Of a stretch of DNA of 64,000 nucleotides, positions 16,970 through 45,024 are shown piece after piece. A program made the position numbers and the translations under genes. Source of the DNA: Escherichia phage vB_EcoS_ESCO30; the sequence record NC_106513.1; one strand, 5' to 3'. Each line of letters starts with the position of its first letter. The stretch's first letter is position 1. Under the pieces are notes generated by a model. The model saw nothing but the letters and a program-made list of their open reading frames with translations, had not been told where the DNA came from and ran no database searches.

Positions 16970-17178
16970 TCTATGTCCTCAAACAATTCAATTTCTGCAT
17001 TTGCAATTAAAAGAGCTGGTTCCGATAAGCATATGCCTGATCTAGGGTCAATCTTCTCCTTATCCATCCAAGTATTTATTAAGCAAAATTTAGTAACATC
17101 TTCTCTTAGAATAGATCCATATGCTCCTGAGTCCATAACAAAATAGATACGATCTTTATCTACCTTATGAATCCTCAT
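16966..17178 (-). CDS. hypothetical protein
   Basis: 70-aa ORF, first gene after promoter. Confidence 0.4.
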   Translation of the reverse strand: MRIHKVDKDRIYFVMDSGAYGSILREDVTKFCLINTWMDKEKIDPRSGICLSEPALLIANAEIELFEDIE

Positions 17179-17206
17179 ATCTTTCTCCTCTCAAATTTAT
17201 AAATCT

Positions 17207-17235
17207 ATTATACATATATTTTTAGCTGAAAGCAA
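17207..17235 (-). promoter_or_regulatory. sigma70-type promoter (minus strand) for SIR2/HAD operon
   Basis: minus-strand -35 TTGCTT (17230-17235), 17 bp spacer, -10 TATAAT (17207-17212). Confidence 0.65.
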
Positions 17236-17277
17236 ATAAAATAAAAGCCAGGTCGACTAGCAACCTGGCTGATTATC

Positions 17278-19104
17278 TTACTTAAGATTTAAGTGTTTTA
17301 CTCTACCAAGCACTTCTTTTTGTTTCCCAGAATTGAAAGGCCTACTGCCCGGGGATCCCAGGTACCCGCAAACCCTACGTGTAACCTCTATTTCTTCAGA
17401 CCCACAACTTGGACATACAAACCCACGCTCAGAGGCAATAGATTCACCCATATATCCGCAGTTGAAACACTCGTCAATCGGTATATTAACACCGATATAA
17501 TGGCTACACTCTAGTCCCTTATCTACTACGTATTCAAGAGCTTTATGGAATTTTTTCATTTGTGGTAATTCCACAAACGATATATTACCCCCATTAGCTA
17601 TTTTGGTAAAATGAGCTTCGTACTCAAATTTAGTATCTGGGGCTACCTTCTCTCTTACGTCCAAATGGTGACTATTAGTAAGATAGCCTTTGTCTGTTAA
17701 CCAAGAATACTCTGGGAATCTACGTTCTAGTAATTTATTAAAACGATTACATAGAGACTCACTAGGAGTAGCGTATAAGCTAAATCCAAGATTAGTCTCA
17801 TTAGCTTTAACTTCGCAACGATTTTTTAAGTGAGTGAGAACTTCCTCTGTAAATTCAATACAGTCCCTATGAGTCTGTGGTAAACTAAACATTATTTGGC
17901 ACATCTCATAGACTCCAATATACCCAAGAGATACAGAAGATCTACCCTCAAAAATAGGCCATACATATTCTTCCCCCTCTAAACGTACACCAAAACCACC
18001 GTGCATATAAAGAATAGGGGCTTGTTTAGCCTTCACTTTCTTAAGTCTATCCAAGAAAAAATCATGAGCTTCAAAAGCCTCATCCACATATTTGTCCAGA
18101 ATATCCCAGAAATCTTCAAAAACCCCATCTGCCTCAGCAGCAACCATAGGTAGATTAATAGACACTACACCTAAATTATTGCGCCCTGCAATTTCTCCGG
18201 AGGGGATAGCAGATAAAAAGCTACGACAACCCATAGGGGCTTTAAAATCACCAGTAACAGCTACAACTTTCTCATAGCTTAAATAGTCTGGGTACATACG
18301 GGTAGCAGAACACTCAAGTGCTAGCTGTTTTATATCGTAGTTAGGATCGCCTGGATTTTTATTTAACCCTTCTTTAACTGAGAATACTAGTTTAGGGAAG
18401 ATAGGGGTTGACTCAGCAGCACCTAAACCTTTAATACGATTTTGGAGGATGGCTTTCTGAATCATCCTTTCCTCCCACTCCTGACCTAATCCAAAGCCAA
18501 GCGTAACAAAAGGGGTCTGCCCATTAGAGTTAAATAATGAATTAGTTTCATACTCTAGAGCTTGGAATGCATCATAACACTCTTTTTCAGTAAGCTCAGT
18601 GGCATACACAGCAGCTTTTCTTTCATCCTTGAGCCAACGTAGCCCACGACCCAGATGTTTATTGTAAGACTTTCTGACATACGGGGCTAGAACCTCGTCG
18701 ATACGATCAATAGAGGTGCCACCATACTGAGCACCAGATACTTGGGCAATAATCTGAGCAGTGATTGCACATGCAGTAGTTATGGATTTAGGAGTTTCAA
18801 TATTTGCATTACCAATTTTAGTACCATTCTTCAGCATGCCACCAAGGTCTACTAAGCAACAGTTAGTGTACCCCTGCGCCCTGTAATCCATATCATGAAT
18901 GTGTATCTTACCTAGATTATGGGCGTCTAATAGATGTTTGGGTAATTCCTGCGATACTAAATACTTGTTGATTTCTCCGGCCAATAAGTCTCTTTGAGTA
19001 TGGAACATCTCACTAGGCTTATTAGCATTATTATGTTGTAAGTCTTTATCCGCAGTTAGAGTGAGCAGACCTTTGCAATTCTCAATTAATTCATTCTCTG
19101 TCAT
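17278..19104 (-). CDS. nrdD: anaerobic ribonucleoside-triphosphate reductase (class III)
   Basis: C-terminal glycyl-radical motif RRVCGYLG and CxxC...CPSC zinc ribbon; 608 aa. Confidence 0.85.
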   Translation of the reverse strand: MTENELIENCKGLLTLTADKDLQHNNANKPSEMFHTQRDLLAGEINKYLVSQELPKHLLDAHNLGKIHIHDMDYRAQGYTNCCLVDLGGMLKNGTKIGNANIETPKSITTACAITAQIIAQVSGAQYGGTSIDRIDEVLAPYVRKSYNKHLGRGLRWLKDERKAAVYATELTEKECYDAFQALEYETNSLFNSNGQTPFVTLGFGLGQEWEERMIQKAILQNRIKGLGAAESTPIFPKLVFSVKEGLNKNPGDPNYDIKQLALECSATRMYPDYLSYEKVVAVTGDFKAPMGCRSFLSAIPSGEIAGRNNLGVVSINLPMVAAEADGVFEDFWDILDKYVDEAFEAHDFFLDRLKKVKAKQAPILYMHGGFGVRLEGEEYVWPIFEGRSSVSLGYIGVYEMCQIMFSLPQTHRDCIEFTEEVLTHLKNRCEVKANETNLGFSLYATPSESLCNRFNKLLERRFPEYSWLTDKGYLTNSHHLDVREKVAPDTKFEYEAHFTKIANGGNISFVELPQMKKFHKALEYVVDKGLECSHYIGVNIPIDECFNCGYMGESIASERGFVCPSCGSEEIEVTRRVCGYLGSPGSRPFNSGKQKEVLGRVKHLNLK

Positions 19105-19954
19105 TGATTATTTCCTCGATAAACTTTATAGCTACTTTTGGTTCAATATTGAAGAATTCCGTAGCGCCGTCAAAATCTTTGTACTGGCAATTCTGCTCTT
19201 TAAAGTAGTTATGGGCTAATTTTTCTATTCGAACTGCACTACTATATTCTCCAATTTCAAATACTTTAATTATTTCCAAATCAGTAAGGTGGCTACTAGA
19301 TCTAATTTGTAGAAGCCTACGCTCTGGGTTGTTAGATCTACCTATTTTAACCCCATGTGAGGGGCTATGCATAATATATATCCTAGTACTTTCTAAATCT
19401 CTATAATTACAGTAAGGACAACCGTTCCCTCTTAATACAGATCCTGGAGTAGCTTCCCACCTATGCCCTGCACCACAAAGAAAGGCGGTCTTAGTATTCG
19501 CGTTACTATACTCACCCACTATTCTGATATTTCTGGCAGCAAGACGATCATTTATAGTATTAACACTAAGTTTTTGTTTATTAGTAGCACAAGATGGGCA
19601 GCCACTACCTCTATTAATTATACTATTAAGTGTAGTAGCCCACTCATGACCACAAACACACCTAAATTTAGTATTTATATCGGCACTATTTTTATAGCCG
19701 TTCAACAATGTAATACCTCTGTCCTGTAATACAGTATTAATTCTATCAATATCTAGTTTACGGCTACTAATAGAGCAAGTAGGACAATTGGTCTTTCCAT
19801 TCCTAATAGCGTCAAATTTAGCTGTCCATTGGTGACCGTATTCACACTGATACGTATGCCTATACCTAGAATTTTGATATGGCTTATCCACCATAGTAAA
19901 ACCACGCTCGGCTAGGCATTTATCTACTTCTTCTTGAGTTAATTTTTTCGGCAT
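19091..19954 (-). CDS. T5orf172/GIY-YIG-like putative endonuclease with three zinc-ribbon repeats
   Basis: Three C..GH.W...G.GCPxC repeats, then IYIMHSP..GVKIGRS..P..RL motif; ATG at 19952-19954 with GGAGAAG SD; track start is GTG at 19996. Confidence 0.6.
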   Translation of the reverse strand: MPKKLTQEEVDKCLAERGFTMVDKPYQNSRYRHTYQCEYGHQWTAKFDAIRNGKTNCPTCSISSRKLDIDRINTVLQDRGITLLNGYKNSADINTKFRCVCGHEWATTLNSIINRGSGCPSCATNKQKLSVNTINDRLAARNIRIVGEYSNANTKTAFLCGAGHRWEATPGSVLRGNGCPYCNYRDLESTRIYIMHSPSHGVKIGRSNNPERRLLQIRSSSHLTDLEIIKVFEIGEYSSAVRIEKLAHNYFKEQNCQYKDFDGATEFFNIEPKVAIKFIEEIINDRE

Positions 19955-20007
19955 TCCACTTCTCCACAGAATTTTTACGGCATTCCACTTCTCCACAGAA
20001 TTTTTAC
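19950..20007. repeat. perfect 2 x 29 bp tandem direct repeat (GGCATTCCACTTCTCCACAGAATTTTTAC)
   Basis: Identical copies at 19950-19978 and 19979-20007; each carries SD + ATG of the downstream minus-strand gene. Confidence 0.9.
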
Positions 20008-20011
20008 ACCT

Positions 20012-20040
20012 ATTATACTAAACATTATCCACTATGTCAA
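20012..20040 (-). promoter_or_regulatory. sigma70 consensus promoter (minus strand) for endonuclease/nrdD unit
   Basis: minus-strand -35 TTGACA (20035-20040), 17 bp spacer, -10 TATAAT (20012-20017). Confidence 0.6.
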
Positions 20041-20177
20041 TTAAAATTTTCTTTCGTCATCTAATACTGTAATATTTCGCATATAAATAAATGATTATCT
20101 AGTATCATATTTCTACCTTTATAAGCAAGTAAATTTTTTACTTAAAAGCAATATCATAGGTTTATTTAAAATTATAC

Positions 20178-20206
20178 TTGCTTTTTGCTGTAAACCTTGT
20201 TATAAT
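20178..20206 (+). promoter_or_regulatory. strong early promoter (TTGCTT-17-TATAAT)
   Basis: -35 TTGCTT 20178-20183, -10 TATAAT 20201-20206, AT-rich upstream. Confidence 0.7.
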
Positions 20207-20282
20207 ATATTTGTAAGTTGATAAACAAGATCTCTTTGTTGATCCTCTGTTAGAAGCGAAGTACACTATAGGAGTGTTATTT

Positions 20283-21035
20283 ATGGGAAAAGCACGTCAA
20301 AAAAGAGAGAACCGCAATGGTTCAAGAAAGCGTGGCAACAAATATGAGAATAACGTAATTCAGGCTGATTTTTCTAATGATTACGCTAATCCAGTTGCTA
20401 AATCCCTAGTAGGTAAAAACCGCGAGCAAAAATCATATATCAATATGATCAAGAACAACACAGTGACTGTGGGTATTGGTGAGCCAGGTACAGGTAAAAC
20501 CTTTATTCCGTCTGTTCTTGCAGCTCAGGAACTCGTAGACATTCACTCAGATATTGAGCAAGTGATCCTCGTACGTCCTAATGAACCTCTAGGTAAGTCT
20601 CTTGGTATGCTTCCTGGTGATCTAGCGGAAAAGCTAGAGCCTTGGTTAGAGCCAATAGCTGATGGTATGAAATGGGCCATCGGTGATCATGCCTATAAGG
20701 GATATGTCGAACGTCAGAAAATTAAATTTTTGGCTATAGAACATGCTCGTGGCAGAACTTTCAACAACTCCTATGTAATTGTCGATGAAGCTCAGAATAT
20801 TTCCGTTGAGGCAATGGTTTGTCTCCTAACTCGTGTAGGACAAGACTGCCGTTTAATTATCTGCGGAGATATAGCTCAGAAAGACATTAAAGGTGACTCA
20901 GGTCTAGCACTACTTATGGAAGTCTATGAGAAATACGAAAATGCCCCATTCTCAATGATCGAATTGATTGATAACGTTCGTTCTGTTGAGTCTAAAGCAT
21001 TCTATGATATTTTTAAAGACATGGGGAAGGTGTAA
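20283..21035 (+). CDS. phoH: PhoH-like ATPase
   Basis: Walker A GEPGTGKTF, Walker B VIVDEAQN; ATG 20283 with AGGAG SD (track starts at GTG 20274). Confidence 0.75.
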   Translation: MGKARQKRENRNGSRKRGNKYENNVIQADFSNDYANPVAKSLVGKNREQKSYINMIKNNTVTVGIGEPGTGKTFIPSVLAAQELVDIHSDIEQVILVRPNEPLGKSLGMLPGDLAEKLEPWLEPIADGMKWAIGDHAYKGYVERQKIKFLAIEHARGRTFNNSYVIVDEAQNISVEAMVCLLTRVGQDCRLIICGDIAQKDIKGDSGLALLMEVYEKYENAPFSMIELIDNVRSVESKAFYDIFKDMGKV

Positions 21036-21037
21036 TA

Positions 21038-21234
21038 TGGGAAACGTCGTACATCTACACCGTAAAACTAAAATACATCGTACTTCACTGAGTGCTGCTA
21101 ATATGATTACACGTAAGGAAGGGGAAGAAAGTCCTAAGACTACCCTAGCGTGGAAAATTGTAACCTCAAATCCAAATCGGCCCTTCAATTATAATGAACT
21201 AAGTACCTCAATAGATATTCTGCTGAGAACTTAA
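21038..21234 (+). CDS. hypothetical protein
   Basis: ATG overlapping phoH stop (TAATATG), GGGAAGG SD; 65 aa. Confidence 0.4.
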
Positions 21235-21261
21235 GTGGCCAAAAACTAGACTGACAACACA

Positions 21262-21296
21262 GAAGGCCTGGGTATGAAAATACTCGGGCCTTTTCT
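21262..21296 (+). terminator. rho-independent terminator
   Basis: AAGGCC...GGCCTT stem followed by TTTTCT. Confidence 0.5.
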
Positions 21297-21379
21297 ATCA
21301 GAAAATTTTATTTGCCAAATGACTGAGAATAAAGTAAACTATTTCCTAAATCCCGATAACCATAAAAAAGGAAAACCAA

Positions 21380-23710
21380 ATGAGCCATCGCATTGAAAAA
21401 GTAATTAAACGTGACGGTACTGTAGAAGACTTTGCTCCTGAAAAACTCAATGGTTGGGCAGAGTATGGTTGCAAAACAGTTGATGTAAGTTGGTCAGCCA
21501 TTACTATGGCTGCTCAAAAAACTCTGCCTAAAGGGGTTGTAGATTCCGATACTCTGATGGATGCGTTAATTAAAGCTGCTGAAAGTCTTATCAAAGATAA
21601 TCCAGCATACGACGTACCAGCAAAGGAACTACGTCTTGCGCAGATGCGTAAACGTCTTTATGATTCCTTCGAACCACCTTCTCTACGCTTCTTCCACGAT
21701 CATATGGTTAGTGTAGGTGCATGGGAAGACATGAGTGCATGGATTACCGATGAGCAGTTTGAGGCTTTGAATCAGGTTATTGACCATGATCGCGACCGAC
21801 TTTTTACTAGTGGTGGACTGAAGCAGTTCTTTGATAAGTATTCCCGTCGTAACATAGCCACTGGTGAAATTTATGAAACTCCGCAGTTTGCCTACATGGG
21901 TATGGCAATGGCGATGCTATCTCAACCTAACTGGACAATTCTAGATGCAATCGACCTCTACAACGCAATGTCACTCCACAAAATCAACGTTCCTACGCCG
22001 CCACTGGTTGGTCTGCGCTCTAGTGACCGTGGATTTGCTAGTTGTTGCCTCGTTGATTCCACTGACACATTGGATTCAATCGACACAGCCGAGCACATCG
22101 TCTTCAAAATGGTCGCAGCCAGAGCGGGAATCGGGTATCATCTTGAAAGCCGATCAATTGCTGATCCGGTGCGAAATGGGGCATTCCCGCATTCCGGAAA
22201 ACTGCCATATTATCGACACATTGACCGCTCAGTAAAGGCCAATACTCAGCAAACTCGTGGTGGTTCTGCTACAGTGTCTTATTCATACTTTGACCCTGAA
22301 ATCATTCAATTGATGCAGGTTAAGCAGCAACGTGCTACAGATGAGAATAAAATCGATAAGATGGATTATTCTCTGAGCTTCAACAATCTTTTGTTAAAAC
22401 GTTATCTGAAAAATGAAGATATTACGCTAATGTCATACTTCTATGCTCCAGAAGTTCATGAAGCGTTTTATAGTGATGACGAGGCTAAATTTGAAGAAAT
22501 CTATGTGGCAGCGGAGAAACGTGTGGCATCTCTTACAAAGATCGACCACGAAGGAAAAACAGTTCCAGCAGCTCCTAAAGTCTCTGCAAAAGAAATCCTA
22601 GATACTTGGCTACGTATCCGAATGGAAACAGGACGTATGTATGCCCACCACATCGGGGAATCTAATCGTCACGGTAACTTCCTTGATCCGATCCGTATGA
22701 CAAACCTTTGTGTTGAGATTACTCAGCCTACACGCCCGTTCCATCATATCACGGAACTGTATAAAACAAAAGAACAACTTGATCAAATGAAGCCGGAGGA
22801 TATTGGTGAAGTATCTCTGTGTAACTTAGGTGGTGTTGTACTTGGACGCATGGAATCTCTGGCTGAGTGGGAAAAAACTTGCTACATCCTTCTGAAATTC
22901 GTTGATACAATTATCGAAATTCAGGATTATCCGTTCCCAACTATGGAATATACGGCTAAGAAACGTCGTAATGTTGGTATTGGCCTAATGAACGCAGCAG
23001 GTGCAATGGCCGCAGAAGGTCTGGCTTACGAAGGTATTGAAGCCCGTAACTGGATTCACCGTGAGGCTGAAAAACTGTCCTACTTCCTGCATAAAGCCTC
23101 TGTACGCCTAGCTAAAGAACAGGGTGCATGTGAGTGGTTTGATCGTACTAAACCATCTAAAGGAATTCTGGTAATCGACACGTACAAGAAAACTGTTGAT
23201 GAACTGGTATCCGTAGGTCTAGAAATGGATTGGGAGTCTCTACGTGCAGATATTCTGAAATATGGTATGCGTAACTCTGTTCTGACTGCTCAGATGCCGG
23301 GAGAAAGTTCTTCTGTTCTGTTAGGTGTTACTAACTCTATCGAACCACCACGTAAGATTGTATCTATCAAGGGTAGTGCAGTAAATAAAGTAATTGCAAT
23401 TGCTCCAGGTGCAACCGATTGGGAAACGTTAATGAGCTATAAACTGGCTTATGATGTAGATCGTATCGAGTGGATCAAATGGGTAGCAACTATGCAGAAA
23501 TTCTTCAGTCAGTCTATCAGTACGAATATGTACTATGACTACACCAAGTTTGAGAATGAAATCATTCCTGGCCCAGTAGTAGTTCGTGATTTCATGACTG
23601 CTGTTAAGTATGGGTGGAAAACCTTCTACTACGCAAACTTCAACACCGAAAATGGTGGGGGTGCTGGAGAAGAAGCAGCCGGTTGTGCATCCGGTGGTTG
23701 TACTATTTAA
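21380..23710 (+). CDS. nrdA: ribonucleoside-diphosphate reductase large subunit (class Ia)
   Basis: 776 aa; N-terminal ATP-cone, NLCVEITQP catalytic motif, C-terminal CASGGC pair. Confidence 0.9.
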   Translation: MSHRIEKVIKRDGTVEDFAPEKLNGWAEYGCKTVDVSWSAITMAAQKTLPKGVVDSDTLMDALIKAAESLIKDNPAYDVPAKELRLAQMRKRLYDSFEPPSLRFFHDHMVSVGAWEDMSAWITDEQFEALNQVIDHDRDRLFTSGGLKQFFDKYSRRNIATGEIYETPQFAYMGMAMAMLSQPNWTILDAIDLYNAMSLHKINVPTPPLVGLRSSDRGFASCCLVDSTDTLDSIDTAEHIVFKMVAARAGIGYHLESRSIADPVRNGAFPHSGKLPYYRHIDRSVKANTQQTRGGSATVSYSYFDPEIIQLMQVKQQRATDENKIDKMDYSLSFNNLLLKRYLKNEDITLMSYFYAPEVHEAFYSDDEAKFEEIYVAAEKRVASLTKIDHEGKTVPAAPKVSAKEILDTWLRIRMETGRMYAHHIGESNRHGNFLDPIRMTNLCVEITQPTRPFHHITELYKTKEQLDQMKPEDIGEVSLCNLGGVVLGRMESLAEWEKTCYILLKFVDTIIEIQDYPFPTMEYTAKKRRNVGIGLMNAAGAMAAEGLAYEGIEARNWIHREAEKLSYFLHKASVRLAKEQGACEWFDRTKPSKGILVIDTYKKTVDELVSVGLEMDWESLRADILKYGMRNSVLTAQMPGESSSVLLGVTNSIEPPRKIVSIKGSAVNKVIAIAPGATDWETLMSYKLAYDVDRIEWIKWVATMQKFFSQSISTNMYYDYTKFENEIIPGPVVVRDFMTAVKYGWKTFYYANFNTENGGGAGEEAAGCASGGCTI

Positions 23711-23785: not shown

Positions 23786-23816
23786 ATTCCTGAAATAGTG
23801 AGAAAGAGGAAAATCA

Positions 23817-32564: not shown

Positions 32565-33361
32565 ATATTCATAAATTAGAGAACAGCGAGCCGATTACGC
32601 TGAGTGCAGAATCCCAACCGGAGCGCATTGAATAGAGTCGGTGGGTTAGTTGGAAAACTAGTACACAGGGGGCGGCAATCCCGGTTAGTGGCTAGAACGT
32701 GTAAAATGAGGCGTCTGAAACCTCTCCCCTAAACTCTTCTCTAATTTACTGATAGTGGGGTGTGGAAATCACTTATGTAGTAACACTGCCGATCTAGTAT
32801 AAACGGTATTATCAAGCCGTAACTGGTGGAAGATGTAGGTTCGAATCCTACGGTCGGTAAGAACTGGATAACTGGTGCTTTTAACGTAAAAGCTTCCGAG
32901 GTTAGTTGCGCACTGCCTAAACCACGCGGTAGTTGGTTCCAGACTAACCAACCAGTCTGCTGAATAGTTTTATTACGATTTAACTATGTCCAGGCATAAA
33001 GAAGAACTTTAGAAGGTATTCTAGGTAGTGAAGTTTTTCCTCCATATCGGAGTAGTTTTTCAAGCTATCCACAAAGTGGGAAATGATGGCATGAGAGATG
33101 CCACTAATGGTGCACAATAGCACAGGTAATTCGCGATAACCCCTGTTGAGTAGCAGCAAAAAGGTGGGGAGTCATGACCCTAACCTAACCGAGTCCTCAG
33201 TATACCGCAGGACATAACCACTAAGTCACCTTGACTTAAACTGGAAAATAATAGACGTTACTGTATTTTGTCTTGAAATACTTAATGAGTGAGACTTATG
33301 ACTCTCCCGGTATCGTCTGTATTTTTAAGAGTTTTTACGAGAGTTCTTAAAAATACTTAAA

Positions 33362-33436
33362 CGGGGTGTAGTCTAAGGGAGAGGCAGGAGTCTTCTAAAT
33401 TCCTTTATGCAGGTTCGAATCCTGTCACCTCGGCCA
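33362..33436 (+). tRNA. tRNA-Arg (anticodon TCT)
   Basis: Hand-folded: acceptor CGGGGTG/CACCTCG, D-stem GTCT/AGGC, anticodon loop CTTCTAA, T-arm GCAGG-TTCGAAT-CCTGT, CCA encoded. Confidence 0.65.
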
Positions 33437-33470
33437 ATTTTATTAACTGTAACTAAGACAAAGGAAATAT

Positions 33471-34418
33471 ATGTTTAATACTAAAAATATGAAAGAACTG
33501 ACTTCTGAGCAAAAAGTAATTCGCACTATTAAACGTTGGGGTATTGGTGCTGTAGTTGGTTTAGCAGGTTTAATCCTAGCTTTTAATTCATATACTATTG
33601 TTTCTGATGGTACGGTTAAAACCCAAACATTTCTGGGTAAAGTAGATCCTAACCCAGTATTACCTGGTTTCCATCTTGTAAACCCATTTGCATCTTTCGA
33701 TACTTTTAGTACAAAAGATATTGCTGTAAAATTAGATAAACTTCAGGTTCCTAGCCAGGATAAGTTTAAATCCACTGTTGACCTGACTGTTATGTTACAA
33801 TTTGATGGTTCTAAGGCACCGATCAACCGTATTAACGCAGGTACTCAGGATCAGGCGTTAGATAAGTATGTAACTGAGAAATTGCTATCTACTATTCGTG
33901 AATTTGGTAAGTCTGTTCCTAAAGCACAAGATTTGTTTGACGCTAAAATTCAGGCACAATTGCAAACCGCAATTCAACAGGAAGTTGAAGAGTATGCACG
34001 CCCCTATGGTTACACAGTTAAGCAAGTATTCCTTCAGGATATTACATTGCCACCGGTAATTATGGAACAGGTACAGAATACCAAAGTTCGTGAAGAACAA
34101 GTTAATGCTGCGAAAGCTGAATTGGCTCGTGTTGAACAAGAAGCACAGCAGAAGGTTAAACAAGCAGAAGCAGATCGTGAAGCTCGTAACAACCAAGCTA
34201 TTGCAAACGAACGTGATGCAGATGCTAAACTGTACGCAGCTAAGAAAGAAGCTGAAGCTAACGCTGCTCTGCAACGTACTATTACTCCTGAGATGATTCG
34301 TTGGAAACAACTAGAAGTTGAAATGATTCGTGCTCAGAAATATCAAGGTGGTGTACCGCAAACAGTAGTTGGCACTGGTTACGATGGCCAGATGATTATG
34401 GATATGCGTAACAAGTAA
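33471..34418 (+). CDS. SPFH/band-7 domain membrane protein
   Basis: N-terminal TM helix, SPFH-like core and long Ala/Gln/Glu coiled-coil tail. Confidence 0.65.
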   Translation: MFNTKNMKELTSEQKVIRTIKRWGIGAVVGLAGLILAFNSYTIVSDGTVKTQTFLGKVDPNPVLPGFHLVNPFASFDTFSTKDIAVKLDKLQVPSQDKFKSTVDLTVMLQFDGSKAPINRINAGTQDQALDKYVTEKLLSTIREFGKSVPKAQDLFDAKIQAQLQTAIQQEVEEYARPYGYTVKQVFLQDITLPPVIMEQVQNTKVREEQVNAAKAELARVEQEAQQKVKQAEADREARNNQAIANERDADAKLYAAKKEAEANAALQRTITPEMIRWKQLEVEMIRAQKYQGGVPQTVVGTGYDGQMIMDMRNK

Positions 34419-34442
34419 TACCCACATGTAATATTCGAAGTA

Positions 34443-34477
34443 AGCCCTGCGTTCCCTGGAGAGCGCAGGGCTTTTCT
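34443..34477 (+). terminator. rho-independent terminator
   Basis: AGCCCTGCG...CGCAGGGCT 9-bp stem followed by TTTTCT. Confidence 0.75.
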
Positions 34478-34488
34478 GTATTTAAGGT

Positions 34489-34532
34489 AAAAGAAAAGCC
34501 CCTAAGTCTTTCGACTAGGGGCTTTATTGTTT
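34489..34532. terminator. bidirectional rho-independent terminator between convergent units
   Basis: GCCCCTA...TAGGGGC stem flanked by AAAAGAAAA upstream and TTTATTGTTT downstream. Confidence 0.6.
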
Positions 34533-34742
34533 GGTTCTTTAGAACCATATACTCTTATTACAGCAACCACCCATACGGGAGGCCAATCTTGACTGAAAAT
34601 CTACTCTAGGGGGCAGGATAAGAGTAGGCTTAAAGGCAAAGGGATTGAACGCCGGTATTTGTGTAAACATTGCTGGAGAGCAACAACGTGCTACAGGCAT
34701 TGGGCAGCACGAAACAGATTTTCTGCAACACATAATTCCTCC

Positions 34743-35159
34743 TTAGGAGTTATTATCACCATTTTGAGCTTTTGCAACTTGGCTTTGGCAGAAGCTATTA
34801 AACTTACCCATAAGTGATACAAGCTGTTTCCCATCCTCTGTCTTTGCGAAGTCTTCGAAAAGGGCTAGTACTGCCTGTCCTTCCGCAGAAACCTGCGGTT
34901 GTTGGGTTTGTTGCTGAACTTGCTGCTGAGCCACCTGTTGCTGCATTTGTTGAGGCATTTGCGACTGCCCGCTCATTTGCTGCATCATTTGCATAGGACT
35001 CACACTTCCAGGGTTTTGCTGGAGTTGTTGCTGCATCTGTTGCGCTTCTGCTAAACGCTGTTGCAACTGTTGTAGGTAAGGGTTATCCAGTCCCGGAACG
35101 GGCTGCTGGGAGCCCATTTGTTGATTAAATCCGTTGTTTACAAAACCATATTTACTCAT
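34743..35159 (-). CDS. glutamine-rich low-complexity protein
   Basis: 138-aa ORF, about 30% Gln with QQMQQQ repeats; convergent to neighbours. Confidence 0.5.
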   Translation of the reverse strand: MSKYGFVNNGFNQQMGSQQPVPGLDNPYLQQLQQRLAEAQQMQQQLQQNPGSVSPMQMMQQMSGQSQMPQQMQQQVAQQQVQQQTQQPQVSAEGQAVLALFEDFAKTEDGKQLVSLMGKFNSFCQSQVAKAQNGDNNS

Positions 35160-35180
35160 AATGGGCTCCTCCCCTTAATT

Positions 35181-36161
35181 TTAAGCCGGCAGTTTAGCCT
35201 GCAGACCAGCCAGAGTCTGAGTGATAGCACCAAGACTTACAGCGATTTGGTTGATTACCTGACCGTTTGCACCACTACCTGCAGCGATTGCTTCGCGCAG
35301 ACGGCATTCATTCAGTTCGTCCTGGATACGTGCAGTAGTTACACCAGCGATTGCAGTCTGAAGCTCACAGCAACATTCAGCAAGCTGACGTTCGATAGCG
35401 TTCTGGTTAGCACACATCTGAGCCTGAACAGCGGCAAACTGGTTGTTGGTCTGAATAGACTGCTGGAAAGCAATCTGAGCAGAGTCAAACTTATCTTGAG
35501 CACGTGCTATCTGGTTAGCAGCGAAAGACTGATCCATCTGACGAGAAAGATCGAACTGACCCTGAATAACGTTACGAGTTTCAGCACAGATCTGATTTGA
35601 CAGATTAGCACCTGTACCATAGATAGTAGTCAGAACTTGCTGAGTGCTAGCAGCTTGAGCAGCTCCCACACCGTTTACTGCGCTTAGAACAGCCCCAGTG
35701 CCCTGGTTAGCTTCTGTACGAGTAGTATTGATTGCAGCTAGAATACTTGCAGTATCTTGGTTAGAAAGGATCGCGTCCACAGCAGTTCCTTCAGCGGCAA
35801 CACCAACACCGCGACCAAAACCACCAAAACCACCAAATCCGCCTGTTAATAGAGCACCGATTAGGATAGCTCCGAATAGACCCATACCTTCTCCACCGAA
35901 AGCACTTGCGTTAGCTGGGAATGCACCCATGCCAGGGAAGCCGTTAGTAAATACGTTTACTGGTTCTTGCATTTTATGTTTTCCATATTTATGACAATGT
36001 TCATCATCGTCATCTTCTTCATCTTTATCATCGTGTTCACGATGTTCTTCTTCGTAGGCTTTGACTTTCTCCCACTTTTTCTTATCTGATTCCTCGTGAC
36101 GATGCAGTTCTGCTGCTACGCTAGCGACGGTTTCAGGACTCTTAGCTACTTCTTCTGTCAT
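35181..36161 (-). CDS. Gly/Gln/Ala-rich protein with acidic N-terminus and hydrophobic GGFGGFGGFG segment
   Basis: ATG at 36159-36161 with AGGAGGTG SD; acidic DEEDDDDEH stretch, hydrophobic MGLFGAILIGALLTGGFGGFGGFG, long Q/A/N-rich tail with CCC motif. Confidence 0.5.
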   Translation of the reverse strand: MTEEVAKSPETVASVAAELHRHEESDKKKWEKVKAYEEEHREHDDKDEEDDDDEHCHKYGKHKMQEPVNVFTNGFPGMGAFPANASAFGGEGMGLFGAILIGALLTGGFGGFGGFGRGVGVAAEGTAVDAILSNQDTASILAAINTTRTEANQGTGAVLSAVNGVGAAQAASTQQVLTTIYGTGANLSNQICAETRNVIQGQFDLSRQMDQSFAANQIARAQDKFDSAQIAFQQSIQTNNQFAAVQAQMCANQNAIERQLAECCCELQTAIAGVTTARIQDELNECRLREAIAAGSGANGQVINQIAVSLGAITQTLAGLQAKLPA

Positions 36162-36223
36162 TTTTTGACACCTCCTAGTATATAGAAAATGTGTGTCTCT
36201 TTGATCACTCATCCATAACATAT

Positions 36224-36252
36224 ACTTTACACTACCCCGGCGAAAATGTCAA
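36224..36252 (-). promoter_or_regulatory. candidate promoter (minus strand) for low-complexity gene pair
   Basis: minus-strand -35 TTGACA (36247-36252), 17 bp, -10 TAAAGT (36224-36229), weaker -10. Confidence 0.35.
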
Positions 36253-36368
36253 GGGGTCTTTAAAAATTGCCCCCGGATTTTTAGTGGGGTCACAAATTTT
36301 GGTCCTCACCACTTATCTGCTACCCTTAAGTGCCCTATGATTTTCCCCTAAAAAGTTAAAAAATTTGA

Positions 36369-36397
36369 TTGCTTGAATGCTAAATTCTCTGTATAAT
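36369..36397 (+). promoter_or_regulatory. strong early promoter
   Basis: -35 TTGCTT 36369-36374, 17 bp, -10 TATAAT 36392-36397. Confidence 0.7.
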
Positions 36398-36427
36398 ATA
36401 TCTATAAATTTGAGAGAGGAACCAAAT

Positions 36428-36946
36428 ATGAATGTTGATGAGCTAACACAGCACCTCTTATCTAGGGGATTTGATACTGATAAATATCATTGCTGGTTAA
36501 GTCCGGAAGGATGGCTAACAGTCCCGTTGTATGATTTCTCTGGGATGTTGAGGGGCTATCAAACTTATAATCCTTCTGCTCCAAAAGGTCATGGTAAGTG
36601 CCCCCTTGAAGCTAAATACTTTACTTATTCTACCACCCAGTGTGTATGGGGACTAGAAACTCTCAATGGAGATGAAAAAGTAGTATTGATCGCTGAATCT
36701 GTATTTAAGGCAGTTGCGTTACATAACGCTGGTTATCCAGCCATAGCAATGTTGGGTTCTTCTCCAGGAAAAGCGTTATTAAAGCAACTAAAATTACTAC
36801 CTTTTAAATTGGTAGCTGTTGGTGATAATGATCCTGCTGGTGAAAAATTTGCTAGAAAATTAAACGGTTTTGTTTCTCCCGTAGATGTGGATGAGATGTC
36901 TACCGAAAACTTGAAAAATTTTCTTGCTATGAAGCTAAATTTCTAA
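36428..36946 (+). CDS. small TOPRIM-domain protein
   Basis: ATG 36428 after GAGAGAGGAA SD; TOPRIM-like Glu (VLIAES) and DxD (VGDNDPAG); track start 36377 lies inside promoter. Confidence 0.5.
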   Translation: MNVDELTQHLLSRGFDTDKYHCWLSPEGWLTVPLYDFSGMLRGYQTYNPSAPKGHGKCPLEAKYFTYSTTQCVWGLETLNGDEKVVLIAESVFKAVALHNAGYPAIAMLGSSPGKALLKQLKLLPFKLVAVGDNDPAGEKFARKLNGFVSPVDVDEMSTENLKNFLAMKLNF

Positions 36947-36967
36947 TATAATATATCTTATAAATTC

Positions 36968-37056
36968 GGAAGAATAGCATAACGGTATTGCAGCAGATTG
37001 CTAATCTGTCGGTTTGAAATATAGCCTTGTGGGTTCGATTCCCACTTCTTCCGCCA
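36968..37056 (+). tRNA. tRNA-Ser (anticodon GCT), class II
   Basis: Acceptor GGAAGAA/TTCTTCC perfect, anticodon loop TTGCTAA, long variable arm, T-arm GTGGG-TTCGATT-CCCAC, CCA encoded. Confidence 0.75.
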
Positions 37057-37062
37057 GATTTT

Positions 37063-37140
37063 GGTTCTCAAGCTCATATGGTATGAGCACCCGGCTCATA
37101 ACCGGAAGGTACGTAGGTTCGAATCCTCGGGGAGCCACCA
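37063..37140 (+). tRNA. tRNA with anticodon CAT (Met or Ile-lysidine type)
   Basis: Acceptor GGTTCTC/GGGAGCC, D-stem GCTC/GAGC, anticodon loop CTCATAA, T-loop TTCGAAT but T-stem only 3 bp; CCA encoded. Confidence 0.5.
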
Positions 37141-37160
37141 ACTTAATTAGGGGATTACAA

Positions 37161-37349
37161 GTGGAATTATACATAGTTTATGTTGTGTTCATTCAAGATA
37201 GAGAATACCCTGATGAATATAAAAAAGGATATAGATTAGCCAGAGCTACCTCTGAAGCCCAAGCTATGGATAAAGTGGCAGATTATATGATTACGGTAGA
37301 AAACGTACACTATATCGACTACCTTGAAGCCTCAAAAGTAATTGACTAG
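37161..37349 (+). CDS. hypothetical protein (GTG start)
   Basis: Track ORF 37014-37349 overlaps two tRNAs; trimmed to GTG 37161 after AGGGGA SD. Confidence 0.3.
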   Translation: MELYIVYVVFIQDREYPDEYKKGYRLARATSEAQAMDKVADYMITVENVHYIDYLEASKVID

Positions 37350-37358
37350 GGAGACTAT

Positions 37359-37544
37359 ATGTCTAAGTTTCAAGAACTCAAGCAAGAGCTAGAAGAATGT
37401 GCCTGCCCTGAATGTCTGGGGATTGGAGAAAGTTCTGATGCAGAAGCAGGAGATACTTTTTGCAATATCTGGGTTTGCCCAAATTGCAATGGTACAGGTA
37501 TTAATCCTAACTGTGGTATTTCTCTAGATATTGAAAGAGGATAA
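37359..37544 (+). CDS. hypothetical zinc-ribbon protein
   Basis: CACPECLG...CPNCNGTG Cys pairs; 61 aa. Confidence 0.45.
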   Translation: MSKFQELKQELEECACPECLGIGESSDAEAGDTFCNIWVCPNCNGTGINPNCGISLDIERG

Positions 37545-37646
37545 TACCTGTGAAACTAAAAGATTATTATATTGGTTGGTTTGTGGGACTAGTAGTAGGA
37601 TTTTCACTAGGCTATAATATGTATCAACTAATAAACTGATTACACG

Positions 37647-37723
37647 GGGGGTGTAATCGAATTGGCATAGGTACTGGACTTAAAATTCAGGTTTTGTGGG
37701 TTCGAATCCCACCACCCCTACCA
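37647..37723 (+). tRNA. tRNA, anticodon TAA (Leu-like), type uncertain
   Basis: Acceptor GGGGGTG/CACCCCT, anticodon stem CTGGA/TTCAG with loop CTTAAAA, T-arm GTGGG-TTCGAAT-CCCAC, CCA encoded; D-stem only 3 bp. Confidence 0.5.
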
Positions 37724-37738
37724 AATTAAGGAAATAAG

Positions 37739-37906
37739 ATGTATAGACATCCACCTCCGCCAACACGTCGTTCTAGGGAAGTCATCCTTATGGAATTGAC
37801 TAAAAACTTCAAGGCAACTCTTGAAGATAGAGATCTAGGCACGGATGAAGATATTGATTTTATTTGTAGACTATTAAAGATGAAACTGGAGAAACAACAT
37901 GGCTAA
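37739..37906 (+). CDS. hypothetical small protein
   Basis: 55-aa ORF below track cut-off, AAGGAAATAAG SD. Confidence 0.35.
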   Translation: MYRHPPPPTRRSREVILMELTKNFKATLEDRDLGTDEDIDFICRLLKMKLEKQHG

Positions 37907-38105
37907 TCCTGAAATTACCGCACAACGTTTCATGCTTAAAGGCATGATTGCTGAGGCAGGTATAACTCAAGAGGTTGCAGATTTTCATAAGCAATTTCTT
38001 GACATTATAACTCTAGCTAAAGAGACTGGAGAAAAAGAACATGGAGCGGCAATTATGGCTATATCTCTTATTAGTCTAGACTTGGCTGAAGAATCTGGAG
38101 TTTAG
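37899..38105 (+). CDS. hypothetical protein
   Basis: 68-aa ORF. Confidence 0.45.
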   Translation: MANPEITAQRFMLKGMIAEAGITQEVADFHKQFLDIITLAKETGEKEHGAAIMAISLISLDLAEESGV

Positions 38106-38135
38106 CTCCTCCAAACAGAATTTTTAAAAATGTAC

Positions 38136-38165
38136 TTGCCTTTTGCTTTAAATTTCTGATATAAT
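38136..38165 (+). promoter_or_regulatory. early promoter
   Basis: -35 TTGCCT 38136-38141, 18 bp, -10 TATAAT 38160-38165. Confidence 0.6.
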
Positions 38166-38195
38166 AGTTATATAAATTGATGAAGGAGTTAACGA

Positions 38196-38471
38196 ATGCA
38201 AAATCGTGTTATAGCAGCTGGTATTGAAAGTGCAATCTGTAAATCCTGGGAAGGCTGGGAAGGTGAGATTGAATGGCTTTATTTCTATGATGTAGAACTT
38301 CTGCCGGAAGTTAAAGCTAAATGTGTTAAAGCTGGCATGGCTCCGGATGCAAAAGCTGATATTGATATTTCAATGTCTGAACTTAAAGGTCGTGTAGTTA
38401 CCGTTAGTAATGAGGGGGAAGAAGTTTTCGAACTTCCATTCTCCTTAACTGTCACTCCTAAGTTCGACTAA
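38196..38471 (+). CDS. hypothetical protein
   Basis: 91-aa ORF with AAGGAG SD. Confidence 0.5.
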   Translation: MQNRVIAAGIESAICKSWEGWEGEIEWLYFYDVELLPEVKAKCVKAGMAPDAKADIDISMSELKGRVVTVSNEGEEVFELPFSLTVTPKFD

Positions 38472-38507
38472 CTAATACAGCACTGAGCAAGTTCTTTAAA
38501 ATTTGAC

Positions 38508-38536
38508 TTGCTCAGTGCCTTAAAACTTGGTATAAT
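38508..38536 (+). promoter_or_regulatory. early promoter upstream of tRNA-Tyr, overlapped by 12-bp inverted repeat
   Basis: -35 TTGCTC 38508-38513, 17 bp, -10 TATAAT 38531-38536; palindrome GCACTGAGCAAG...CTTGCTCAGTGC spans 38479-38518. Confidence 0.6.
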
Positions 38537-38601
38537 AGTTATCTAATTTGGAAACATATTTAAAAGTGTTTAAATTAGAATTTTTGAATACTTCTAAATA
38601 T

Positions 38602-38689
38602 GGGCGTTTATTCCGTAAGTGGTAGCGGAGGGGATTGTAAATCCCTGGTCATTGCGACTCGAGTGGTTCGACTCCATTAACGCCCACCA
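38602..38689 (+). tRNA. tRNA-Tyr (anticodon GTA), class II
   Basis: Acceptor GGGCGTT/AACGCCC perfect, anticodon stem GGGGA/TCCCT with loop TTGTAAA, variable arm hairpin, T-arm AGTGG-TTCGACT-CCATT, CCA encoded. Confidence 0.75.
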
Positions 38690-38706
38690 AATTAAAGGTA
38701 AAGGAT

Positions 38707-39198
38707 ATGTATATTGATCGGATAATTCAAGAAGCTGCAAATAGAGGTATTATACAGTTGGGTTCACCAGCTGATATAAATAAAGATCTAATATTAGAAA
38801 GCCTCACATTTGGTACAGCTAACTTTGGTCGCGATAGTAATCGTCGATATAGCTTGAAGTTATCTGCACTATCTTTTATCAAGTATAACAAAAGTATTGG
38901 AGAAAAATCCAGCTGTGGTTTTATTTACGCAATAACTAACCCAGCTTGGGATAACTATGTAAAAATTGGTATGTCTTCTGATCCTAAAACAAGATTAAGA
39001 AATTACCAAACCTATTCTCCTTTACGTGATTATAAGTTAATACATTGGTCATTTTGGTTTAATGCTAGAGAAGCGGAGAAAATGCTTCATAATAGCTTTC
39101 CTGAACGGCTTAATGAATGGGTAGTGTTAGACAGAGGTGTAGACGAAATACTTTCCGAGTTTAACAATTTATCCAATAAGCAATTTAAGTCCTGTTAG
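38707..39198 (+). CDS. T5orf172/GIY-YIG-like putative endonuclease
   Basis: GFIYAITNPAWDNYVKIGMSSDPKTRL motif; 3' end overlaps tRNA-Glu. Confidence 0.6.
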   Translation: MYIDRIIQEAANRGIIQLGSPADINKDLILESLTFGTANFGRDSNRRYSLKLSALSFIKYNKSIGEKSSCGFIYAITNPAWDNYVKIGMSSDPKTRLRNYQTYSPLRDYKLIHWSFWFNAREAEKMLHNSFPERLNEWVVLDRGVDEILSEFNNLSNKQFKSC

Positions 39199-39265
39199 AC
39201 AAACTGGTAAAGTCACTACCCTTTCAAGGTAGGATTTGCGGGTTCGATCCCCGCACAGGACGCCA
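39189..39265 (+). tRNA. tRNA-Glu (anticodon TTC)
   Basis: Acceptor GTCCTGT/ACAGGAC perfect, anticodon stem CTACC/GGTAG with loop CTTTCAA, T-arm GCGGG-TTCGATC-CCCGC, CCA encoded. Confidence 0.75.
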
Positions 39266-39273
39266 ATTTCTGC

Positions 39274-39350
39274 ATTCCTAGAGTGTTACTGGACAGCATG
39301 TCGGTCTCCAAAACCGTACGGTCTAGGTTCGAGTCCTAGTAGGTTTGCCA
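39274..39350 (+). tRNA. tRNA-Trp (anticodon CCA), acceptor stem imperfect
   Basis: Anticodon stem-loop TCGGT-CTCCAAA-ACCGT, T-arm CTAGG-TTCGAGT-CCTAG, CCA encoded; acceptor has two U-U mismatches. Confidence 0.5.
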
Positions 39351-39356
39351 AAATTT

Positions 39357-39431: not shown

Positions 39432-39433
39432 AT

Positions 39434-39721: not shown

Positions 39722-39742
39722 TTTCCAAAAGTTCTGTATAAT
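39714..39742 (+). promoter_or_regulatory. strong early promoter
   Basis: -35 TTGCTT 39714-39719, 17 bp, -10 TATAAT 39737-39742. Confidence 0.7.
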
Positions 39743-45023: not shown

Positions 45024-45024
45024 T

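What the first reader, a model, noticed from the sequence alone, without database searches (positions are those of the whole stretch)
19950..20007. Perfect 29-bp tandem duplication of the SD + start codon of an endonuclease gene
GGCATTCCACTTCTCCACAGAATTTTTAC occurs twice back to back. On the minus strand each copy reads ...GGAGAAGTGGAATGCC, a ribosome-binding site and ATG. The downstream copy starts the zinc-ribbon/T5orf172 protein (MPKKLTQ...). The upstream copy's ATG is out of frame and opens a two-codon uORF (M-P-stop). It sits beside the divergent promoter zone, so it could be a translational control element or a recent slippage scar in a mobile gene.
Basis: seen in the sequence. Interest (0 to 1): 0.5.

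Follow-up and report, generated by a model that had tools for sequence, protein, structure and literature searches.

The report
Private 29-bp duplication before endonuclease gene
A T5-like phage carries a one-off, back-to-back 29-base duplication of the ribosome-binding site and start codon of a homing-endonuclease gene; it has the structure of an ordinary replication-slippage mutation, is absent from every relative examined, and adds a tiny two-codon decoy reading frame rather than being an evolved control element.

Summary
Window 19950-20007 holds two perfect head-to-tail copies of a 29-bp unit, and no shuffle of the window produced a match. The window is a T5-like phage (Tequintavirus). On the minus strand a perfect sigma-70 consensus promoter (20040-20012) predicts a start near 20005. 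The unit is therefore almost exactly the whole short leader, the GGAG ribosome-binding site, the ATG and codon 2 of a 287-aa zinc-ribbon/T5orf172 endonuclease. That gene's stop overlaps the nrdD start.

The downstream copy starts the endonuclease. The upstream copy opens ATG-CCG-TAA (Met-Pro-stop), out of frame, ending 20 nt before the real ATG.

All relatives have one copy: 39 phage records, 3 IMG/VR contigs and 20 ENA/Logan contigs. The junction 20-mer is absent from IMG/VR and the genome collection, and its single metagenome hit is an unrelated chance match. In the ancestral sequence the unit is flanked by GTAAAAATT and GAAAAAATT, the mark of a microhomology-mediated (slippage) tandem duplication.

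There is no RNA structure, no Rfam match and no conservation. It is therefore a recent private mutation, or less likely an assembly error, that creates a bar-like two-codon minigene. Its effect on expression is untested and probably modest. Interest is low.

The parts
19979..20007 (-). Upstream (promoter-proximal) copy of the 29-bp unit. It runs from predicted position -2 through the leader, SD1 (GGAG, 19994-19991) and ATG1 (19983-19981) to the first two bases of CCG.
   Evidence: Absent from all relatives.
19950..19978 (-). Downstream copy of the 29-bp unit, carrying SD2 (GGAG, 19965-19962) and the authentic endonuclease start ATG2 (19954-19952).
   Evidence: It corresponds to the single copy of relatives, where the annotated RBS and CDS start lie at this position.
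19941..19949 (-). GAAAAAATT, a partial third copy. It is the downstream microhomology partner of GTAAAAATT at the start of the unit (8 of 9 bases, 7 contiguous). It is also codons 2-5 of the endonuclease.
19975..19983 (-). New two-codon minigene ATG CCG TAA (fMet-Pro-stop). It is out of frame with the endonuclease ORF, and its stop lies 20 nt upstream of ATG2 and 9 nt upstream of SD2.
   Evidence: It exists only because of the duplication junction CCG|TAAAAATT.
20012..20040 (-). Perfect sigma-70 consensus promoter TTGACA-17-TATAAT, with predicted +1 at about 20005 (A). The duplicated unit therefore starts at about -2.
   Evidence: 12 of 12 hexamer positions. Conserved in all 27 related loci read. 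The transcription start is inferred, not mapped.
19091..19954 (-). Free-standing homing-endonuclease-like gene of 287 aa, with repeated treble-clef zinc-ribbon/CapR-homology modules and a C-terminal T5orf172/MUG113 (GIY-YIG-related) domain. It is intact.
   Evidence: Window 17174-19978 (nrdD plus this gene) aligns without gaps to Shivani, whose homologue gp141 is also 287 aa.
17278..19104 (-). nrdD (anaerobic ribonucleotide reductase). Its ATG overlaps the endonuclease stop by 14 nt, so it lies in the same transcription unit downstream of the duplicated leader.
20283..21035 (+). Divergently transcribed phoH-like gene, given as context. It is not affected by the duplication.

Best explanation
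This is a recent, lineage-private tandem duplication produced by microhomology-mediated replication slippage in a T5-like phage. In the ancestral single-copy sequence the 29-bp segment begins with GTAAAAATT and is followed by GAAAAAATT. A nascent strand that had just copied one of these repeats re-paired with the other, 29 nt back, and copied the segment a second time. The segment runs from about -2 of the predicted transcript through the leader, GGAG and ATG to CCG.

The result is an mRNA with two identical translation-initiation regions 29 nt apart. The downstream one is the unchanged start of the T5orf172 homing-endonuclease gene, which is followed by the overlapping nrdD. The upstream one is a decoy that makes only fMet-Pro and stops at UAA, 20 nt before the real AUG.

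Inferred consequence (not shown): the two sites are too close to be occupied by two initiating ribosomes at once. Met-Pro-stop is likely to be a slow unit, in both peptide-bond formation and release after Pro. The decoy therefore most likely lowers independent initiation at the real start modestly, partly offset by re-initiation after termination. The net effect is small, and the allele should revert readily by the reverse slippage. It is a mutation, not an evolved regulatory device.
For: Shown:
- The repeat is perfect and cannot be chance.
- Copy number is one in all 39 phage records that share the region. Their spans are 132-133 nt against 161 in the window, and proportionately 29 nt shorter in the three records matched only to query position 155-156.
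- Copy number is also one in 27 of 27 loci read base by base, including 20 independent ENA/Logan assemblies. All 301-aa cluster members begin MFSIIGVKILWRSG-MPKKL, a reading possible only with one copy.
- The junction 20-mer is absent from IMG/VR and the genome collection. Its only metagenome hit is an unrelated GC-rich contig.
- The microhomology G(T/A)AAAAATT sits at both ends of the ancestral unit, no filler bases lie at the junction, and the middle repeat is of the upstream type, as backward slippage predicts.
- Against Shivani, window 17174-22251 differs structurally only by this 29-bp insertion and two single-A indels.
- The same A-tract is also the endpoint of an independent 673-bp microhomology (AATTAA) deletion in other relatives, so it is prone to illegitimate recombination.
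- The endonuclease ORF, SD2 and ATG2 are intact.

From the literature:
- Tandem duplications flanked by 5-8-bp microhomology pairs, reverting about 100 times faster than they form, are a described mutation class (PMC8639346).
- Two-codon minigenes in leaders change expression of the next cistron up or down according to spacing (PMC3262186, PMC8708949).

Model-based: the predicted cost of opening the authentic initiation region rises from 4.1 to 6.1 kcal/mol with two copies.
Against: No reads are available, so a mis-assembly cannot be excluded. The window's own genome was not found in any collection, so there is no independent assembly of it. The microhomology is AT-rich and has one mismatch, and the strictly unambiguous junction overlap is only 1 nt; short AT-rich microhomologies are reported to be poor substrates (PMC8639346). 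The transcription start is predicted, not mapped. The direction and size of any effect on translation are inferred only. Published two-codon minigenes more often stimulate the downstream gene, so the sign could be the opposite of what I propose. That the two-copy allele is the assembled consensus of a phage stock could reflect selection rather than a bottleneck.
Confidence: 0.78

Rival explanations
1. Assembly or sequencing artefact: the phage has one copy and the second was introduced by the assembler or by polishing.
For: The duplication is unique among more than 60 related loci. The source genome could not be found elsewhere for an independent check. A related draft record (H8) shows a clear sequencing error at this very spot, an extra C after ATGCC.
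Against: A 29-bp perfect tandem is shorter than any current read, so reads span it and assemblers do not normally invent it. It lies in mid-genome, not at a contig end or terminal repeat. The surrounding 5 kb has no other structural anomaly, and the neighbouring ORFs are intact. Its boundaries fall exactly on a microhomology pair, as expected of a biological slippage event.
Confidence: 0.1
2. Selected regulatory change: the slippage allele was retained because the Met-Pro-stop minigene usefully tunes expression of the endonuclease-nrdD operon. It could damp a costly nuclease, or load ribosomes and protect the short leader, as the LEE1 and axe-txe minigenes do. It might act as a reversible switch in the phage population.
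For: The decoy has a full SD at ideal spacing (7 nt) and lies on the predicted transcript. Its stop is 20 nt from the real AUG, a range in which published two-codon minigenes act in cis (PMC3262186, PMC8708949). The two-copy form is the consensus of the sequenced stock even though such alleles are expected to revert quickly (PMC8639346).
Against: It is found in one genome only. There is no sign of recurrence, no structure, and no enrichment of such minigenes. Plaque purification alone can fix a neutral variant.
Confidence: 0.1
3. Break-repair scar rather than replication slippage: a double-strand break near the endonuclease gene (its own or a co-infecting phage's nuclease) was repaired with template switching at the microhomology, duplicating 29 bp.
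For: The site lies at the 5' edge of a homing-endonuclease gene, a region of presence/absence polymorphism. A phage homing endonuclease (SegB) has been shown to promote tandem amplification with microhomology at the unit ends (PMC13096335).
Against: Nothing in the sequence separates this from plain slippage. The cleavage site of this enzyme is unknown. The SegB amplifications are 718-bp units in many copies under selection, not a 29-bp doubling.
Confidence: 0.1
4. The duplication creates an N-terminally extended endonuclease starting at GTG 19996 (MEKWNAVKILWRSG-MPKKL..., 301 aa), which is in frame because of the extra 29 nt.
For: The mechanical ORF list gives this 301-aa ORF.
Against: The GTG lies inside SD1, only about 9 nt from the predicted 5' end, with no SD of its own on the transcript. 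The ATG with GGAG at 7 nt is the start annotated in Shivani and conserved in every relative read.
Confidence: 0.02
5. Target-site duplication or excision footprint of a transposable element.
For: Direct repeats of host sequence are what transposition leaves behind.
Against: The copies abut with nothing between them. At 29 bp the repeat is far longer than usual target duplications (my own knowledge). The boundaries coincide with pre-existing microhomology, which transposition does not require.
Confidence: 0.01

Closest known systems
Microhomology-mediated tandem duplications / slipped-strand mispairing between short direct repeats (PMC8639346; the classical Streisinger-type slippage is cited from my own knowledge)
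   Same: It is a head-to-tail doubling of a short segment that is single-copy in relatives. The ancestral segment is bounded by a short direct repeat (7 contiguous, 8 of 9 bases), the junction is clean, and fast reversion is expected.
   Different: The microhomology here is AT-rich and imperfect. Formation and reversion were not observed, only the product.
Two-codon minigenes: phage lambda bar (the sequence AUG AUA UAA is from my own knowledge; the bar paper appears in the reference list of PMC2490762), EHEC LEE1 leader AUG AAA UAG (PMC3262186) and axe-txe mg2 (PMC8708949)
   Same: It has an SD, an AUG, one sense codon and a stop on an mRNA leader, followed by an A-rich stretch and lying close upstream of the next cistron. 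[quoted passage not shown]
   Different: Those are conserved or experimentally characterised elements. This one is a by-product of a duplication in a single genome, encodes Met-Pro, and has no functional data. Its SD and AUG are an exact copy of those of the downstream gene.
Expression control of free-standing phage homing-endonuclease genes, such as I-TevI autorepression and delayed translation, and mobE in Aeh1 (from my own knowledge; I-TevI's repressor role is mentioned in PMC10448857)
   Same: It is a free-standing GIY-YIG-related nuclease gene next to ribonucleotide-reductase genes, with a feature at its translation start that could limit its expression.
   Different: The known cases use RNA hairpins that sequester the RBS, or operator binding by the nuclease. 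No such structure is predicted here, and the feature is not conserved.
Homing-endonuclease-promoted tandem amplification (SegB in T6, PMC13096335)
   Same: It is a tandem repeat at a homing-endonuclease locus with microhomology at the unit boundaries.
   Different: The SegB units are 718 bp, multi-copy, include a tRNA gene and were selected by a defence system. Here a non-functional 29 bp is doubled once.

Membership tests
Microhomology-mediated (slippage) tandem duplication | The segment is single-copy in related genomes and present as exactly two head-to-tail copies here. | tested here: met
Microhomology-mediated (slippage) tandem duplication | In the ancestral sequence, a short direct repeat lies at the start of the segment and immediately after its end. 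| tested here: met
   GTAAAAATT and GAAAAAATT lie 29 nt apart in all single-copy relatives. There are 7 contiguous identical bases.
Microhomology-mediated (slippage) tandem duplication | The junction is clean, without filler or foreign bases. | tested here: met
   Perfect periodicity over 59 nt.
Microhomology-mediated (slippage) tandem duplication | High-frequency reversion to one copy. | not testable with these tools
   Needs passage of the phage with amplicon sequencing.
Two-codon minigene (lambda bar / LEE1 / axe-txe mg2 type) | A Shine-Dalgarno sequence at functional spacing, an AUG, one sense codon and a stop codon. | tested here: met
   GGAG, 7 nt, then ATG CCG TAA at 19994-19975.
Two-codon minigene (lambda bar / LEE1 / axe-txe mg2 type) | It lies on a transcribed leader upstream of a cistron. 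| tested here: inconclusive
   A perfect consensus promoter places +1 at about 20005, upstream of the minigene. The start site is not mapped.
Two-codon minigene (lambda bar / LEE1 / axe-txe mg2 type) | It is translated, and it either affects the downstream gene in cis or causes peptidyl-tRNA drop-off. | not testable with these tools
   Needs reporter fusions, toeprinting and pth(ts) hosts.
Evolved cis-regulatory leader (uORF or attenuator) | Conservation of the element among relatives. | tested here: not met
   None of 39 phage records and none of the 27 loci read base by base carry it.
Evolved cis-regulatory leader (uORF or attenuator) | Alternative or stable RNA structure coupling uORF translation to the downstream RBS or a terminator. 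| tested here: not met
   Minimum free energies are no better than shuffles (z = +1.57, +0.86 and 0.00). No Rfam family reaches threshold.
T5orf172 (GIY-YIG-related) free-standing homing endonuclease gene | A T5orf172/MUG113 nuclease domain with DNA-binding modules. | tested here: met
   PF10544 46.9 bits, PF13455 47.5, PF14311 57.6 and PF21817 45.0, all above their cut-offs.
T5orf172 (GIY-YIG-related) free-standing homing endonuclease gene | Presence/absence polymorphism at a fixed site between conserved genes of related phages. | tested here: met
   The gene is intact in 25 records, carries a 673-bp deletion in 8, and is a decayed remnant in the DT57C group. It always lies between the same promoter and nrdD.
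T5orf172 (GIY-YIG-related) free-standing homing endonuclease gene | Site-specific cleavage and homing. | not testable with these tools
   Needs biochemical and co-infection assays.
Transposon target-site duplication | The direct repeats flank an inserted element, or match the characteristic length of a known element. | tested here: not met
   The copies abut directly.

The most novel reading that the evidence does not exclude
The 29-bp doubling is a reversible, slippage-driven switch. Phage subpopulations would toggle between one and two copies. The two-copy state would insert a slow Met-Pro-stop minigene that retunes translation of the homing endonuclease and the coupled anaerobic ribonucleotide reductase. 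That would amount to a contingency locus in a lytic phage.
Probability: 0.06. Interest if true: 0.4.

Novelty: new member of a known kind. Interest (0 to 1): 0.13.

Why it matters
It matters little beyond annotation. The duplication explains why mechanical ORF calling gives a spurious 301-aa GTG-start product here, and the true product is the 287-aa protein starting at 19954. It marks the A-rich start of this endonuclease gene as a hotspot for microhomology-mediated rearrangement: a duplication here and a 673-bp deletion in relatives. That fits the usual gain, decay and loss cycle of homing-endonuclease genes. If the phage is available, it provides a natural isogenic pair for testing how an upstream duplicate initiation site with a two-codon ORF affects translation, but the principle is already known.

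Tried and rejected
- **RNA structure:** I folded the one-copy and two-copy leaders. No fold was better than shuffles. There is only a weak new pairing between the two UUCUGUGGAGAA stretches, and the opening cost rises by about 2 kcal/mol.
- **Rfam:** an E-value-mode scan of 19000-20400 gave only a sub-threshold DnaX-like hit inside the start of phoH, which I take as chance.
- **Junction search:** the junction 20-mer gave no hits in IMG/VR or the genome collection. The one metagenome hit is an unrelated GC-rich contig matching by chance.
- **Exact-protein look-ups:** neither the window's 287-aa product nor the 301-aa product is on record.
- **The 301-aa cluster representative:** it looked at first like a signature of the duplication. 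Its extension, MFSIIGVKILWRSG, comes instead from an ATG inside the -10 box of single-copy loci, so the equal length is a coincidence.
- **Minigene enrichment:** SD-plus-two-codon ORFs number 4 in the window against 7.1 +/- 2.7 in shuffles, so they are not enriched.
- **A correction:** I first read the deletion in the Kenya-K36/HildyBeyeler group as in frame. Recalculation shows 673 bp, out of frame with the ATG.
- **Other 29-mer copies:** none occur elsewhere in the window with up to 3 mismatches, so it is not a dispersed repeat or a cassette end.
- **Readings considered and rejected:** target-site duplication and a GTG-start extended isoform. The reasons are under rival explanations.
- **Literature:** a search for slippage duplications in phages returned nothing specific.

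Full report

Yes. The plus strand at 19950-20007 reads GGCATTCCACTTCTCCACAGAATTTTTAC twice without a gap or mismatch. None of 100 dinucleotide-preserving shuffles of the window gave a match with up to three mismatches. Tandem Repeats Finder calls 19941-20007 with period 29, 2.3 copies and score 127, far above the next array in the window at 49. Perfect 29-nt periodicity covers 59 nt (20007 to 19949). It is followed by one mismatch and then seven more matching bases.

**2. What surrounds it?**

- The window is a T5-like phage. A 3-kb query around the site hits 439 phage records, and the records examined are Tequintavirus of the Demerecviridae.
- On the minus strand a 12-of-12 sigma-70 consensus promoter, TTGACA-17-TATAAT, lies at 20040-20012. 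This places the predicted +1 at about A20005. The start is inferred, not mapped.
- The repeat unit on that strand is GTAAAAATTCTGTGGAGAAGTGGAATGCC. It begins at about -2 and contains the whole short leader, GGAG at 7 nt from the ATG, the ATG itself and most of codon 2.
- The downstream ATG (19954) opens a 287-aa ORF with DUF4379 treble-clef zinc-finger, CapR-homology, T5orf172 and MUG113 domains, all above the Pfam cut-offs. This is a free-standing GIY-YIG-related homing-endonuclease-like gene.
- T5orf172 genes are abundant in T5-like phages and often sit beside ribonucleotide-reductase genes (PMC10448857).
- The endonuclease stop overlaps the ATG of nrdD by 14 nt, so the duplicated leader heads an endonuclease-nrdD transcription unit.
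- phoH is transcribed divergently from 20283.
- The upstream ATG (19983) is 29 nt away, out of frame, and reads ATG CCG TAA. Its stop lies 20 nt before the real ATG and 9 nt before the second GGAG.

**3. Copy number elsewhere**

- With a 161-nt query across the site, every phage record that holds the intact gene matches over 132 nt (133 in the H8 working draft, which has an extra C). Three records matched only to query position 155-156 span 126-127 nt. In every case that is exactly 29 nt less than the query.
- A more sensitive blastn found 39 records, with the same result.
- I read 27 related loci base by base: 7 phage or IMG/VR records and 20 independent ENA/Logan metagenome or SRA assemblies. 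All have one copy. The promoter, leader, SD and ATG are almost invariant.
- The protein cluster of this endonuclease has 88 members. All the 301-aa members I read start MFSIIGVKILWRSG-MPKKL, which arises only in single-copy loci.
- The junction-specific 20-mer GGAATGCCGTAAAAATTCTG is absent from IMG/VR and from 185,579 species' genomes. Its one metagenome match is a chance hit in an unrelated GC-rich contig.
- The window's own genome is not in any collection I could query, so there is no second assembly of it.

**4. Origin**

- In all single-copy relatives the unit starts with GTAAAAATT and is immediately followed by GAAAAAATT. That is 8 of 9 bases, 7 of them contiguous. A further AGAAG match lies six bases on.
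- The product here is R2'-unit-R1'-unit-R1' on the plus strand, with the middle repeat of the R1 type. This is what results if a nascent plus strand that had just copied AATTTTTAC slipped back onto the template of AATTTTTTC and copied the 20 intervening bases and the repeat again. This step is my inference from the sequence.
- This is the described class of microhomology-mediated tandem duplication. In that class, 5-8-bp microhomology pairs flank the unit, and reversion is about 100-fold faster than formation (PMC8639346).
- Against Shivani, window 17174-22251 aligns with no structural difference other than this 29-bp insertion and two single-A indels in an intergenic stretch. The locus is not generally error-ridden.
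- The same A-tract is one endpoint of an independent rearrangement in the relatives Kenya-K36, K42, K44, phA11, phC11, phC17 and HildyBeyeler. That rearrangement is a 673-bp deletion between two AATTAA motifs that removes most of the endonuclease gene.
- The DT57C, DT571/2 and Gostya9 group keeps only a decayed remnant. The locus therefore shows the usual invasion, decay and loss series of a homing-endonuclease gene, and its A-rich 5' end is prone to illegitimate recombination.

**5. What does it do?**

- Nothing suggests an evolved device. The element is not conserved.
- There is no fold better than shuffles for the one-copy or two-copy leaders (z from 0 to +1.6).
- No Rfam family reaches threshold.
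- SD-plus-two-codon ORFs are not over-represented in the window (4 against 7.1 +/- 2.7).

What the sequence does establish is a second, identical initiation site with a minimal ORF. The following steps are inferred:

- A 29-nt spacing is less than the mRNA stretch covered by an initiating ribosome, so the two sites should compete.
- fMet-Pro formation and release after a C-terminal Pro are slow steps (my own knowledge). The shortest minigenes are the most prone to peptidyl-tRNA drop-off and to ribosome recycling on the same mRNA (PMC2490762).
- A ribosome sitting on CCG-UAA would reach to about the second GGAG. After termination it is 20 nt from the real AUG and could re-initiate.
- Published two-codon minigenes in the LEE1 and axe-txe leaders raise or lower expression of the next cistron according to spacing (PMC3262186, PMC8708949).
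- A simple accessibility calculation gives a 2 kcal/mol higher cost of opening the authentic initiation region in the two-copy leader.

My best estimate is a modest reduction, or no net change, in endonuclease translation. I put low confidence on the sign.

**6. Rivals**

- **Assembly artefact (about 0.1).** It cannot be excluded without reads. However, the repeat is shorter than a read, lies in mid-genome, and has biologically sensible microhomology boundaries.
- **A selected tuning allele or reversible switch (about 0.1).** This is compatible with a slippage origin but has no support beyond the allele being the consensus of the stock.
- **Break-induced template switching near a nuclease gene (about 0.1).** It cannot be distinguished from slippage using the sequence. 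A precedent exists for SegB in T6, at a very different scale (PMC13096335).
- **A GTG-start 301-aa isoform, or a transposon footprint.** Both are rejected on anatomy.

**7. Comparison with what is known, and verdict**

It works like, and passes the testable criteria for, a microhomology-mediated tandem duplication. By sequence it also qualifies as a two-codon minigene, but it fails the conservation and structure criteria for an evolved regulatory leader. It is a new instance of a known kind of mutation at a known kind of locus.

Of the two readings offered, the slippage scar is the supported one. Interest is low, about 0.13. The practical value is correct annotation of the 287-aa start at 19954, and possibly a natural test case for duplicate initiation sites.

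Noticed in passing
window about 19266-19938 (minus-strand endonuclease gene); L003 1337-1591, L004: Relatives Kenya-K36, K42 and K44, phA11, phC11, phC17 and HildyBeyeler carry a 673-bp deletion of the endonuclease gene between two AATTAA motifs. One motif lies in the same A-tract that bounds the duplication. The deletion is out of frame with the ATG and leaves an 18-aa ORF. Gene callers annotate 64-67-aa remnants from other starts.
   Followed up: yes
L005 (DT571/2) 1105-1240; also DT57C and Gostya9: These phages keep the same promoter and leader, but only a decayed remnant of the 3' end of the endonuclease gene, without an ATG, lies upstream of nrdD. This is a later stage of homing-endonuclease loss.
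   Followed up: partly
window 21380-23710 (nrdA), break at about 22251-22256: The window's nrdA (776 aa) lacks a segment of about 916 bp that Shivani's nrdA has, annotated there as containing an intein splice site. SelmaRatti's nrdA is also annotated as intein-containing. The intein is therefore polymorphic among close relatives.
   Followed up: partly
window 23790-23803 (between nrdA and nrdB): Shivani has a 525-bp HNH homing-endonuclease gene (gp145) between nrdA and nrdB, and the window lacks it. The nrd cluster is thus a mosaic of mobile-nuclease presence and absence, while the window keeps the T5orf172 gene before nrdD.
   Followed up: partly
L001 (Escherichia phage H8 working draft), minus strand near position 2505: The draft reads ATGCCCGAAAAAATT, with one extra C after the start codon of the endonuclease. 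This would frameshift the gene and is probably a draft sequencing error.
   Followed up: no
window 20104-20133 (minus strand) and about 20170-20200 (plus strand): A second, weaker promoter-like site on the minus strand (TTTACT-18-TATGAT) is preceded by AAAAAATTTA. It lies about 90 nt upstream of the consensus promoter. By eye, a TTGCTT-17-TATAAT site on the plus strand faces phoH. The intergenic region looks like a compact divergent early-promoter zone.
   Followed up: no
window 21037-21234 (small ORF after phoH); L002 3508-3705: The homologous 65-aa ORF in RefSeq records of relatives is named 'tail length tape measure protein'. That name is implausible for a 65-aa early-region product and is probably a propagated misannotation.
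   Followed up: no
window 32787-45272: There is a cluster of 22 tRNA genes on the plus strand, typical of T5-like phages. It includes tRNA-Pro (UGG), which may decode the CCG codon of the new minigene.
   Followed up: no
window 20011-20024 (minus strand, GATAATGTTTAGTATAAT): In single-copy relatives an ATG overlapping the spacer and -10 box is in frame with the endonuclease. Several gene callers therefore annotate a spurious 301-aa product (MFSIIGVKILWRSG-MPKKL...). In the window the 29-bp insertion puts this ATG out of frame, and a different spurious 301-aa ORF (GTG 19996) appears instead.
   Followed up: yes
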